NCBI RefSeq assembly: GCF_024223415.1
Contig: NZ_CP100500.1
Direction: 5' to 3' (one strand)
Source of the DNA: Escherichia coli
Lineage (GTDB): Bacteria; Pseudomonadota; Gammaproteobacteria; Enterobacterales; Enterobacteriaceae
Length of the DNA stretch: 64,000 nucleotides
Part shown: positions 44,353 through 44,932 of the stretch, one piece after another
How the letters are laid out: each line of letters begins with the position of its first letter
Numbering within the stretch: the stretch's first letter is position 1
Position numbers and translations under genes: made by a program
Notes under the pieces: model-generated
What the model was told of the DNA's origin: nothing
Seen by the model: only the letters and a program-made list of their open reading frames with translations
The model's database searches: none

Positions 44353-44524
44353 AAGCAACTCCATCTGGCAGGTGAAAATCATGTTTATTTATATATTTCA
44401 ATTAATTGCAAACTGGTCTAATGACAGGGAGAAAAAAATATTGTACAGGTGAAAAGAGAAATAACTTTTAATTATCAATAAATTACCAAACATGCTGCCG
44501 CCGCCATGGAAATGCAAAAACTAG

Positions 44525-44610
44525 CCTTTTTCCGCGACGCTCCCGCCCCGTGGCAGGGGCCCCCACCGGGAGGACCCGACAGCCTGACAGCCTGACAGCC
44601 TGACAGCCGT
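44525..44610. repeat. GC-rich tract followed by 3.5 tandem copies of the octamer GACAGCCT; candidate cos / terminase-binding region
   Basis: cccgacagcctgacagcctgacagcctgacagccgtgac read directly, about 230 bp upstream of the small-terminase start. Confidence 0.35.
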
Positions 44611-44744
44611 GACGAGCATCTGATACAGCGCTTTACATAATGGCATAGGAATAATTCAGAAGGACATCACAGCATGCCCACACAAATTAGTGTGAGTGTC
44701 CTGTTTCTTCCTACGCACAGGACTGACGAGCATGAGGGGAAAAT

Positions 44745-44915
44745 ATGCGAACCATAAATGCCTCATCTTCAGCAATGCAGCCGGCATCCGAACAGGACGA
44801 TATTGTAAATTCACCTAATTACGAGGACATTGCAGTAGTTGAATTGCAGCTCTGTATTAGCCTGACAGTGACAGAATGCGATATTGACTCTGTCACAGGT
44901 GAAATAGTTTGAATG
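44745..44915 (+). CDS. Hypothetical small acidic protein, 56 aa
   Basis: ATG preceded by GAGGGGA SD; MRTINASSSAMQPASEQDDIVNSPNYEDIAVVELQLCISLTVTECDIDSVTGEIV; not on track. Confidence 0.3.
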
Positions 44916-44932
44916 ATTAGCAGTTATGGTGC

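What the first reader, a model, noticed from the sequence alone, without database searches (positions are those of the whole stretch)
44383..44932. Candidate cos/packaging region with octamer repeats and two small unannotated ORFs
The about 550-bp gap upstream of the terminase small-subunit gene contains a GC-rich tract followed by 3.5 tandem GACAGCCT octamers (about 44576-44606). This sits where lambda-like phages place cosB/cosN, between the lysis genes and Nu1. The same gap holds a 56-aa acidic ORF on the opposite strand with a good SD (44745-44915) and an 8-bp inverted repeat GTGACAGA...TCTGTCAC (about 44868-44898).
Basis: partly seen in the sequence, partly recalled or inferred. Interest (0 to 1): 0.5.

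Follow-up and report, generated by a model that had tools for sequence, protein, structure and literature searches.

The report
Lambda-type cos site with neutral repeat
The gap upstream of the small terminase gene is the ordinary lambda-type DNA-packaging (cos) site of an E. coli lambdoid prophage, but the octamer repeats are a length-variable stutter on the far side of the cut, not a terminase site, and the small ORFs are not genes.

Summary
The observations are real. There are 3.9 tandem GACAGCCT units at 44578-44608, an 8-bp inverted repeat at 44868-75/44889-96, and a 55-aa ORF at 44745-44912.

The general interpretation, a cos region, is right. Phage genes run on the minus strand. In phage sense the gap holds the following:
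- GGGTCCT (44571-44577), identical to lambda cosQ.
- A 22-nt spacer.
- The 12-mer GGGCGGGAGCGT (44537-44548), 8/12 identical to lambda's cohesive end, with all differences in the variable right half.
- An A5/T5 "I2-like" tract.
- The only IHF-consensus match in the 64 kb (44473-44485).
- The DUF1441 small-terminase start at bp 185/197 (lambda: 191).

Two deposited phage genomes, plaque-forming Tritos and phage cdtI (TerS 100% identical), begin and end exactly at this junction.

The details of the interpretation are wrong:
- The octamers lie beyond cosQ, on the right-end side, and not between cosN and terS.
- They vary between 2, 3 and 4 units in near-identical relatives.
- They are absent from cdtI and from 19 of 47 loci with the same cosB.
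- All five small ORFs in the gap are broken in relatives that are 92-96% identical.
- The inverted repeat is no more than the window's background.

In passing: a hairpin at 44698-44723 is the truncated 3' end of a widespread, covarying, unannotated ~175-nt element of lambdoid late regions.

The parts
43825..44352 (-). Small terminase subunit gene (DUF1441 family), 175 aa. Alternative upstream starts at 44364 (bp 185 from the left end) and 44382 (not conserved).
   Evidence: Pfam DUF1441, E=1.6e-44. PGAP and Tritos start at 44352. 100% identical to phage cdtI 'putative small terminase subunit'. Followed by a gpA-type large terminase at 41717-43816 with GpA_ATPase and GpA_nuclease domains, 24% identical to lambda gpA, E=3e-22.
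44353..44508 (-). cosB-equivalent region (bp 41-196 of the left chromosome end), the inferred binding region for the small terminase. A+T-rich.
   Evidence: It occupies the same position as lambda cosB, between cosN and terS. It is 194/196 identical to the Tritos left end and 192/196 to cdtI. The same cosQ-cosN core is joined in other phages to at least four different sequences here, each with its own terS type, including true lambda and phage-21 types. That is the known pattern of cosB specificity (PMC4669245). Binding itself is inferred, not shown.
44473..44485 (-). IHF-consensus site TAATTTATTGATA (YAANNNNTTGATW), bp 64-76. Candidate equivalent of lambda I1.
   Evidence: It is the only match to the consensus on either strand of the whole 64-kb window, where 3.25 are expected by chance. 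Its position is comparable to lambda I1, which lies between R3 and R2. The MDRELKNL-type left end also carries a consensus match here (TAATAGATTGATA), by my reading.
44446..44454 (-). TTTCACCTG, bp 95-103. Weak candidate terminase (R-like) site, copy 1.
   Evidence: Direct repeat family D3. There are 6 copies in the window against 0.6 expected, two of them inside cosB. Weakness: the L080/L027 relatives have TTTCAGCTG, and a third copy at 44896-44904 is not kept in relatives with the same terS.
44369..44377 (-). TTTCACCTG, bp 172-180. Weak candidate terminase (R-like) site, copy 2, direct orientation, 77 bp from copy 1.
44509..44532 (-). I2-like spacer GAAAAAGGCTAGTTTTTGCATTTC with poly-dA and poly-dT runs (bp 17-40).
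   Evidence: Sequence. Lambda-like phages have an AT-rich I2 segment with poly-dA/dT at about bp 18-50 (PMC4856287). It is conserved in nearly all left-end types that are not lambda- or 21-like.
44537..44548 (-). cosN: the 12-bp cohesive-end sequence GGGCGGGAGCGT. The inferred nicks fall between 44549|44548 (phage-sense strand) and 44537|44536 (other strand).
   Evidence: Tritos (OV696610) and cdtI (AB285204) records begin GGGCGGGAGCGTCGCGG and end ...CCTGCCACG. It is 8/12 identical to lambda GGGCGGCGACCT, differing only at bp 7, 8, 9 and 11. CG flanks both nick positions. PMC4669245 states that right-half variation is common, that Gifsy-1 differs at 8, 9 and 11, and that the CG flanks are conserved.
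44549..44570 (-). 22-nt spacer between cosQ and the nick (CCCGGTGGGGGCCCCTGCCACG). This is the last 22 nt of the right chromosome end.
   Evidence: Lambda has 23 nt here.
44571..44577 (-). cosQ-equivalent, GGGTCCT, identical to lambda cosQ (lambda 48473-48479).
   Evidence: Among right ends with unrelated upstream DNA, homology starts exactly at GGGTCCT. PMC4669245: the 7-bp cosQ is highly conserved and is needed to terminate packaging.
44578..44608 (-). Octamer array, phage sense (GGCTGTCA)x3 + GGCTGTC. A variable-number tandem repeat abutting cosQ on the right-end side.
   Evidence: TRF. In IMG/VR loci the array has 2 units (15), 3 units (10) or 4 units (the window, L003 and L018). RefSeq genomes show 901-bp and 893-bp versions of the same 99%-identical stretch. 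Most relatives have only the proto-repeat GGCTGTCAGGCTGAC. It is absent in cdtI.
44612..44697 (-). Non-coding linker ('segment A', 3' half), including the small hairpin CTCACAC-N6-GTGTGGG at 44677-44696.
   Evidence: 78-80% identical to the stretch that precedes cosQ in a large group of other prophages. Present in 1902 of 5426 complete E. coli genomes, almost never annotated. No Rfam match. Fold z-scores are -0.9 (sense) and +0.1 (antisense).
44698..44765 (-). Truncated 3' end (about 70 nt) of a widespread ~175-nt conserved non-coding module of lambdoid late regions. Its last helix is GTCCTGT-N12-ACAGGAC at 44698-44723.
   Evidence: No full copy elsewhere in the window.
44787..44932 (-). Stretch homologous to lambda 47945-48090 (about 87-92% identical), downstream of the ybcW-like gene. 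It contains the 8-bp inverted repeat (44868-44875 / 44889-44896).
   Evidence: The arms are identical in lambda and 4 of 13 loop positions differ, which is not significant at about 10% divergence. No terminator-like site.
44745..44912 (+). 55-aa ORF. Judged not to be a gene.
   Evidence: ATG becomes ACG, together with a 7-bp deletion in L117/L105 (96-97% identical) or two 1-bp deletions in L060/L080/L027/L007 (91-92%). No Pfam hit. Not annotated by PGAP. The three substitutions against lambda in the shared 69 nt are all non-synonymous.
44933..45139 (-). ybcW-like 68-aa gene, the last annotated gene before cos.
   Evidence: Annotated in Tritos as YbcW and by PGAP as a hypothetical protein. Homologous to lambda 47738-47944.

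Best explanation
The gap is the cos site of a Tritos/cdtI-like lambdoid prophage of E. coli, built like lambda's, read on the minus strand.

Initiation (inferred). During lytic growth the terminase assembles on the A+T-rich cosB region (44353-44508), probably helped by an IHF-induced bend at 44473-44485. The terminase consists of the DUF1441 small subunit and a gpA-type large subunit. The large subunit then makes nicks staggered by 12 bp in cosN (44537-44548), giving 5' cohesive ends GGGCGGGAGCGT.

Packaging and termination (inferred). Packaging proceeds from 44548 towards lower window coordinates, through terS, terL and the portal gene. It ends at the next cos on the concatemer, where cosQ (GGGTCCT, 44571-44577) plus cosN are recognised. 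The virion's right end is then at 44549.

The rest of the gap. The octamer array starts 29 bp inside that right end. It is a slipped-strand expansion of a pre-existing 15-bp proto-repeat (GGCTGTCAGGCTGTC) and is most likely neutral. The DNA between the array and the ybcW-like gene is non-coding mosaic DNA. It consists of a linker shared with other prophages, a truncated 3' fragment of a conserved late-region RNA-like module, and a lambda-homologous stretch. None of the small ORFs is a gene.

Shown versus inferred. Shown: the sequence identities, positions, copy-number variation and ORF decay. Inferred: cleavage at these exact bases, terminase and IHF binding, and neutrality of the repeat.
For: cosQ is identical to lambda's, the spacer is 22 nt against 23, and cosN matches lambda at 8/12 positions, with all four differences in the right half, the half the literature describes as commonly variable. 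CG flanks both nicks (PMC4669245).

Two independent phage records start at bp 1 of the 12-mer and end at the base before it. One is Tritos, which forms plaques and siphovirus particles (PMC9928086). The other is cdtI. The window's left end is 194/196 and 192/196 identical to them.

The large terminase has GpA_ATPase and GpA_nuclease domains and aligns with lambda gpA over 627 aa. The gene order terS-terL-gpW-like-portal is lambda's. terS starts at bp 185/197 against 191 in lambda.

The only IHF consensus in 64 kb lies at bp 64-76. An I2-like A5/T5 tract is present.

Across 120 IMG/VR loci the cosQ-to-cosN block is the shared unit. Upstream homology breaks exactly at GGGTCCT, and downstream it joins at least 4 cosB/terS types, including lambda's and phage 21's.

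The array has 2, 3 or 4 units in otherwise near-identical loci (901- versus 893-bp hits). Of 47 loci with the same left end, 19 lack it altogether and 9 have only the proto-repeat. cdtI, with identical TerS, lacks it.

All five ORFs of at least 30 aa in the gap are disrupted in relatives that are 92-96% identical. The 41-aa ORF crosses the array and cosN and is frameshifted by every copy-number change.
Against: No experimental end-mapping could be read. The Tritos and cdtI records may have been opened at cos by analogy with lambda, and the cdtI paper is not in the library. No IMG/VR contig ends at the junction.

The small terminase shows no significant sequence similarity to lambda Nu1 (E=4.6), and no clear R3/R2/R1-type repeats could be identified. 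The TTTCACCTG pair is in direct orientation and one copy is mutated in a relative.

Neutrality of the array is argued from dispensability and variability, not measured.

A conserved hairpin lies within about 150 nt upstream of cosQ in 136 of 137 hits. That could mean some right-end function was missed.
Confidence: 0.86

Rival explanations
1. One reading: the octamer repeats are the recognition repeats for the small terminase (cosB-like R sites).
For: They are direct repeats next to the GC-rich cut site. The CTGTCA/TGACAG hexamer recurs in the region: in the array, beside the inverted repeat, and once in cosB at about 44424-44429. By my recollection lambda R sites contain CTGTCG and lambda has an R-like sequence left of cosN. 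That is a lead, not a test.
Against: They are on the cosQ side of the nick. The cosB sites of lambda-like phages lie between cosN and terS.

Copy number varies by 8 bp (0.76 helical turn) among near-identical prophages.

They are absent from cdtI, whose TerS is 100% identical and whose cosB is 98% identical, and from 19 of 47 loci with the same left end.

Other phages have unrelated sequence at this position.
Confidence: 0.04
2. The DNA between the ybcW-like gene and cosQ is a functional cis element of the right chromosome end or of the late transcript. This DNA comprises the hairpin remnant, the linker and the octamer array. The element might act in RNA processing or stability, or as an accessory packaging-termination or end-protection signal, with the array tuning spacing.
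For: The linker and hairpin are conserved at 78-80% in about 1900 E. coli genomes and almost always sit just before cosQ. The hairpin's parent module shows covariation and strand-specific G-U pairs. According to PMC4856287, the cosQ end is the end exposed to nucleases.
Against: The window has only a truncated copy of the module. In lambda the module lies about 1.6 kb from cos, and in VT2-Sakai it precedes a different terminase, so it belongs to the lysis end and not to cos. cdtI and many others lack both it and the linker. Folding energy is not better than shuffles. Changes of 8 bp in spacing argue against a phased DNA element.
Confidence: 0.07
3. The 55-aa acidic ORF (44745-44912, + strand) encodes a real small protein expressed from the prophage.
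For: ATG start with a GAGGGG Shine-Dalgarno sequence 7 nt upstream. It is intact in all relatives that are at least 97% identical over the gap. Lambda has a genuine opposite-strand small gene (DUF3950, E=1.9e-20) at the equivalent place.
Against: The start codon is lost and there are frameshifts in the next-closest relatives. It spans a mosaic junction. No family match. PGAP does not call it. No promoter-like site lies upstream on the + strand. Substitutions against lambda are all non-synonymous.
Confidence: 0.03
4. The cos-like sequence is present, but the real termini of this phage are elsewhere or this copy is inactive (a defective prophage).
For: No experimental mapping is available here. 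Some related prophages do carry a mutated cosQ, for example GGCTCCT in an O157:H7 prophage.
Against: All conserved positions are intact: cosQ, the CG flanks and the left half of cosN. The region is 99% identical to that of plaque-forming Tritos. terS, terL and the portal gene are full length.
Confidence: 0.05

Closest known systems
Bacteriophage lambda cos (cosQ-cosN-I2-cosB with R3-I1-R2-R1), cut by gpNu1/gpA terminase
   Same: Identical 7-bp cosQ. A 22-nt against a 23-nt cosQ-to-nick spacer. A 12-bp cohesive-end sequence with the left half GGGCGG and CG at both nicks. A poly-dA/dT I2-like tract. An IHF consensus at a similar distance. terS start at about bp 190. A gpA-family large terminase and the same gene order.
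   Different: cosN differs at bp 7, 8, 9 and 11. cosB is unrelated in sequence. The small subunit is DUF1441, with no significant similarity to Nu1. No clear R3/R2/R1 triplet was found. The DNA immediately upstream of cosQ is an octamer array instead of lambda's TGATAATCATTATCA palindrome.
Phage cdtI (AB285204) and phage Tritos (OV696610), E. coli lambdoid phages
   Same: The same cosN 12-mer, cosQ, cosB (98-99% identical) and small terminase (cdtI 100% identical). Both records are opened at this junction. Tritos also shares the whole right end, including the ybcW-like gene.
   Different: Tritos has 3 octamer units instead of 4. cdtI has a different right end with no array, no linker and no hairpin.
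Gifsy-1 / phage 21 / N15 group of lambda-like cos sites (Feiss laboratory)
   Same: The cosQ-cosN core is shared while cosB and terS specificity differ. Natural variation is confined to bp 7-12 of the cohesive end. [quoted passage not shown]
   Different: The exact 12-mer GGGCGGGAGCGT was not found in the searchable literature. The catalogue paper (Vahanian et al. 2017) could not be read. Gifsy-2, whose TerS is 40% identical, has a clearly different cut-site sequence.
Variable-number tandem repeats (slipped-strand microsatellite-like arrays) in E. coli prophages
   Same: A short unit, perfect copies, whole-unit copy-number differences between otherwise identical sequences, and an origin in a two-unit proto-repeat.
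   Different: It is not known as a typing locus. It sits directly against a functional site (cosQ), so an effect on packaging termination cannot be formally excluded.

Membership tests
Lambda-type cos site | 12-bp cohesive-end sequence with the conserved left half (GGGCGG) and 5'-CG-3' flanking both nick positions | tested here: met
   GGGCGGGAGCGT at 44537-44548 with ...CCACG| and |CGCGG flanks. Criteria taken from PMC4669245.
Lambda-type cos site | 7-bp cosQ (GGGTCCT) about 23 bp upstream of the nick | tested here: met
   GGGTCCT at 44571-44577 with a 22-nt spacer. Lambda: 48473-48479 with 23 nt.
Lambda-type cos site | cosB between cosN and terS, with an IHF site and repeated small-terminase (R) sites | tested here: inconclusive
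   An IHF consensus is present, unique in the window. Only a weak pair of TTTCACCTG direct repeats was found. No R3/R2 inverted pair was found. Binding is not testable here.
Lambda-type cos site | Adjacent gpA-family large terminase and a small subunit gene starting about 190 bp from the left end | tested here: met
   GpA_ATPase and GpA_nuclease domains. 24% identity to gpA, E=3e-22. terS start at bp 185/197.
Lambda-type cos site | Virion DNA actually ends here with 5' 12-nt overhangs | not testable with these tools
   There is only indirect support. The Tritos and cdtI records start and end at the junction. The basis of those record ends could not be read.
   The array is on the cosQ side. 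It is absent in cdtI, which has an identical TerS, and in 19 of 47 loci with the same left end. Copy number varies.
Protein-coding gene (55-aa ORF and the four other ORFs in the gap) | Start codon and reading frame kept in relatives; family or homologue support | tested here: not met
   All five are broken in relatives 92-96% identical. No Pfam hit. None is annotated in RefSeq.
Intrinsic terminator or structured RNA (8-bp inverted repeat at 44868-44896) | G+C-rich stem followed by a T-run, or covariation, or frequency above background | tested here: not met
   No terminator-like site. The frequency is at window background. The arms are invariant in all relatives, so no covariation test is possible.
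Known RNA families (Rfam 15) | A covariance-model match in 43800-47500 | tested here: not met
   The only match is the cspA thermoregulator at 46822-47207. There is nothing in the gap at E<=1.

The most novel reading that the evidence does not exclude
The non-coding DNA between the ybcW-like gene and cosQ may not be junk. It comprises the truncated conserved hairpin module, the linker and the octamer VNTR. It could act in cis at the right chromosome end or in the late transcript, for example as an RNA processing or stability element, or as an accessory signal for packaging termination or end protection. In that case the copy-number changes of the octamer would tune its distance from cosQ.
Probability: 0.07. 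Interest if true: 0.45.

Novelty: new member of a known kind. Interest (0 to 1): 0.15.

Why it matters
For annotation, this fixes the chromosome ends, packaging direction and cos subsites of a very common E. coli prophage type. The same stretch occurs in more than 2700 of 5426 complete genomes. It also removes five spurious small ORFs.

It adds a natural cosN variant (bp 7, 8, 9 and 11 changed) used with at least four different cosB/terS modules, including genuine lambda and phage-21 ones. [quoted passage not shown]

The octamer array is a harmless length polymorphism. It could serve as a strain marker, and it can cause 8-bp assembly or alignment differences right at cos.

The finding itself is ordinary. 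The side observation may deserve its own follow-up: an unannotated ~175-nt module in lambdoid late regions, lambda and Stx phages included, that covaries and is strand-specific.

Tried and rejected
- An Rfam scan of 43800-47500, and of three related loci, found nothing in the gap or in the conserved module.
- Single-sequence folding of 44570-44935, and of the linker on both strands, gave z-scores of -1.4, -0.9 and +0.1, so there is no thermodynamic signal. RNAalifold on 31 linker variants found only two small local hairpins.
- The promoter/terminator scan found no terminator and one weak promoter-like site inside the ybcW-like gene end.
- A literature search for the exact 12-mer returned only unrelated human/rat papers. 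The LF82 paper does not discuss cos. The cdtI paper (PNAS 2007) and Vahanian et al. 2017 are not held.
- I looked for virome contigs that end at the junction as physical evidence of termini. None of the 46 loci with the window-type left end starts there; by their IMG identifiers most look like prophage calls from isolate genomes.
- BLASTP of the small terminase against lambda Nu1 gave E=4.6, and a search against PDB sequences found nothing below E=0.49.
- Chi sites: 15 in the window, but none in the gap.
- A third TTTCACCTG copy near the ybcW-like gene was considered as a distal terminase site. I rejected it because relatives with the same terS have TTTCACAAG and lambda has TTTAGTCTG.
- The lambda sRNA PreS/LPR1 and LPR2 were considered as the identity of the conserved module. 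I rejected this because they map to the early-left operon and the pR' region.
- A 57-codon ORF runs through the linker in other prophages. I rejected it as a gene because G-run and 1-nt indels break the frame.
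Full report
**Orientation and context.** All phage genes around the finding are on the minus strand. In phage order they run: lysis genes (lysozyme 47919-48452, Rz-like 47425-47922), then a block of accessory genes (cspI 46849-47061, gnsB 46002-46178, a DUF1398 gene on the + strand at 45425-45850), then a ybcW-like 68-aa gene (44933-45139), then the gap. After the gap come a DUF1441 small-terminase gene (43825-44352), a gpA-type large terminase (41717-43816), a gpW-like gene and the portal gene. The 901-bp stretch around the gap is 100% identical to several E. 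coli chromosomes. Some version of it is present in 2782 of 5426 complete genomes. RefSeq annotates nothing between the DUF1441 gene and the ybcW-like gene.

**Check of the observation.**
- The octamer array is found by TRF (44578-44613, period 8, 4.4 copies). By direct reading it is three full GACAGCCT units plus seven bases at 44578-44608. It is unique in the window.
- The GC-rich tract (44533-44577) is 84% G+C, next to a 31% G+C stretch.
- The inverted repeat GTGACAGA/TCTGTCAC is at 44868-75 and 44889-96.
- The ORF is 44745-44912: 55 aa, acidic, with a good Shine-Dalgarno sequence.

**What the GC-rich tract is.** Read in phage sense (minus strand) the sequence is:
...GGCTGTCAGGCTGTCAGGCTGTCAGGCTGTC GGGTCCT CCCGGTGGGGGCCCCTGCCACG | GGGCGGGAGCGT | CGCGGAAAAAGGCTAGTTTTTGC...
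Lambda at its ends reads:
...CACTTTAC GGGTCCT TTCCGGTGATCCGACAGGTTACG | GGGCGGCGACCT | CGCGGGTTTTCGC...

The comparison gives the following.
- The 7-bp cosQ is identical.
- The spacer is 22 nt against 23 nt.
- The 12-mer matches lambda at 8 of 12 positions, and all four differences (bp 7, 8, 9, 11) lie in the right half.
- CG flanks both nick positions.

This is the pattern Feiss and colleagues describe for natural lambda-like cos sites: cosQ and the flanking CG conserved, bp 7-12 free to vary, and Gifsy-1 differing at 8, 9 and 11 (PMC4669245).

Two deposited phage genomes begin with GGGCGGGAGCGTCGCGG and end with ...CCTGCCACG. One is Tritos, a prophage of E. coli LF82 that produces siphovirus particles and plaques (PMC9928086). 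The other is phage cdtI. The window's first 196 bp after the junction are 194/196 identical to Tritos and 192/196 to cdtI. The cdtI small terminase is 100% identical to the window's. I could not read how those record ends were determined. The cut position is therefore strongly inferred, not shown.

**The left-end side (cosB).** Counting from bp 1 = 44548, the features are:
- An A5/T5 tract at bp 17-40. It resembles the AT-rich I2 segment of lambda-like phages (PMC4856287).
- The only match to the IHF consensus YAANNNNTTGATW in the whole 64 kb, at bp 64-76 (44473-44485).
- Two direct copies of TTTCACCTG, at bp 95-103 and bp 172-180.
- The terS start at bp 185 or 197, against 191 in lambda.

The TTTCACCTG pair is only a weak candidate for small-terminase sites. 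One copy is changed in a relative, and a third copy near the ybcW-like gene is not conserved. The small terminase has no significant similarity to lambda Nu1.

**Comparative evidence that cosQ-cosN is the functional unit.** A scan of IMG/VR with the junction sequence gave 120 loci.
- Upstream, unrelated right ends become alignable exactly at GGGTCCT.
- Downstream, the same 12-mer is followed by at least four different cosB/terS modules. These are the window's own type, another DUF1441 type (MDRELKNL...), genuine lambda cosB with Nu1, and the phage-21 type.

Shared cosQ/cosN with different cosB specificity is what is known for lambda and phage 21.

**The octamers.** They lie upstream of cosQ, on the side of the nick that becomes the right chromosome end. 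That is the opposite side from cosB and terS.
- The common state in relatives is a 15-bp proto-repeat (GGCTGTCAGGCTGAC or ...GTC).
- Among loci with the ...GTC form there are 2 units (15 loci), 3 units (10, including Tritos) and 4 units (the window, L003 and L018).
- RefSeq genomes show the same 8-bp length difference in otherwise 99%-identical DNA (901 bp against 893 bp).
- Of 47 loci with exactly the window's left end, 19 have right ends with no octamer at all, 9 have only the proto-repeat, 11 have two units, 7 have three and 1 has four.
- Phage cdtI has the same terminase and cosB but instead has ...GGTGATAATCACTCTCATTTTGGC before cosQ. That sequence resembles lambda's own TGATAATCATTATCA motif.

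The array is therefore a slipped-strand VNTR that is not tied to the packaging specificity. I consider it neutral. This is an inference from dispensability and variability.

**The small ORFs.** The 55-aa ORF has ACG instead of ATG plus a 7-bp deletion in relatives that are 96-97% identical. In relatives that are 91-92% identical it has ACG plus two 1-bp deletions. Its N-terminal codons lie in DNA that lambda lacks. In the 69 nt shared with lambda, all three substitutions are non-synonymous. The four other ORFs of at least 30 aa in the gap are also broken in relatives. The 41-aa ORF runs across the array, cosQ and cosN, and is frameshifted by every copy-number change. None has a Pfam match among those tested.

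**The inverted repeat.** Perfect 8-bp inverted repeats with 3-20-nt loops occur 60 times in the window, which is about 0.5 per 550 bp. There is no T-run and no terminator call. The arms are identical in lambda and in all relatives, so covariation cannot be assessed. At about 10% divergence, 16 unchanged bases are not remarkable. I attach no function to it.

**The rest of the gap is a mosaic.**
- 44787-44932 is homologous to lambda 47945-48090.
- 44612-44765 ('segment A') is 78-80% identical to the DNA that precedes cosQ in a large group of other prophages with other DUF1441 terminases. It occurs in 1902 of 5426 genomes and is almost never annotated.
- G-run and single-base indels exclude coding.
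- There is no Rfam match and no folding signal.

**Side observation.** The hairpin GTCCTGT-N12-ACAGGAC (44698-44723) is the last helix of a ~175-nt module found downstream of the lysis genes in 435 phage records.
- It occurs in lambda-like HK629, between the bor promoter and the DUF1398 gene.
- It occurs in VT2-Sakai, under a doubtful 'orf48' just before that phage's terminase.
- In an alignment of 20 diverse copies, a four-helix structure has 95.2% of cells paired, against at most 57% when partners are slid. Six pairs and 13 cells show changes on both sides. The covariation score is above all 500 shuffles.
- Frequent U-A/U-G alternation places the structure on the phage-sense strand, i.e. in the late transcript.
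- Rfam has no such family, and it is not the lambda sRNA PreS or LPR2.
- The window carries only the last ~70 nt, with no full copy elsewhere. Here it is a remnant.
- In 136 of 137 hits of this hairpin type a cosQ-cosN core follows within 63-147 nt. In lambda, however, about 1.6 kb of accessory genes intervene, so the module belongs to the end of the lysis region and not to cos.

**Verdict.** This is a lambda-type cos site of a known phage lineage. The octamers are a VNTR next to cosQ, the ORFs are spurious, and the inverted repeat is background. Novelty is low: a new member of a known kind. Interest is 0.15. The conserved late-region module is the only item here that might merit separate study.

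Noticed in passing
window 44698-44765 (truncated copy); full copies at L218 ~900-1070 (HK629/lambda), L217 900-1081 (VT2-Sakai) and L129 2380-2560 (O157:H7 prophage): A ~175-nt conserved non-coding module lies downstream of the lysis genes in 435 phage records, including lambda-like and Stx phages. A four-helix structure has 95% of cells paired, 6 pairs with compensatory changes, and U-A/U-G alternations that place it on the late-transcript strand. There is no Rfam family, and it is annotated as nothing or as a doubtful ORF. Function unknown.
   Followed up: partly
window 46822-47207 (minus strand): An Rfam cspA thermoregulator match (112.8 bits, E=2.6e-29) covers the 5' leader of the prophage cspI gene. 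The block between Rz and cos is a set of Qin-like accessory genes (cspI, ynfQ/ymcF-like, ynfR, ynfN, gnsB, DUF1398).
   Followed up: no
L063 6237-9577 (IMG/VR UViG_2541047735_000008): Two complete cosQ-cosN cores lie in the same orientation only 3.3 kb apart. They bracket a ClpP-protease/major-capsid fusion gene (637 aa) and a 213-aa ORF that looks like lambda tail-assembly protein gpI (from memory, not tested). The second core is followed by a DUF1441 terS. This could be a cos-bearing satellite-like element or a deletion remnant.
   Followed up: partly
L129 2664-2670 (E. coli O157:H7 strain 2149 prophage) and the L056-type loci: These prophages carry GGCTCCT instead of the otherwise invariant cosQ GGGTCCT, with an intact cosN. 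They may be unable to terminate packaging.
   Followed up: no
L004 1053-1067 (lambda 48452-48466); L127 ~2480-2493 (cdtI): Immediately upstream of cosQ, lambda has the perfect palindrome TGATAATCATTATCA, which from memory resembles a Fur box. cdtI and many other right ends keep a related GATAATCAyTCTCATTTT motif. The window's lineage has the octamer array at this position instead.
   Followed up: no
L004 710-904, minus strand (lambda 48109-48303): The classic lambda record J02459 has no feature here, but there is a 64-aa ORF on the opposite strand with a strong DUF3950 (YlcI-like) match, E=1.9e-20. The window lacks this gene and has 'segment A' in its place. The window's 55-aa ORF partly overlaps the DNA just downstream of it.
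   Followed up: partly
window-wide: There are 15 Chi sites (GCTGGTGG) against 1.9 expected from shuffles, 11 of them on the minus strand and none in the cos gap. Tritos-class phages are reported to be Chi-rich (PMC12315714).
   Followed up: no
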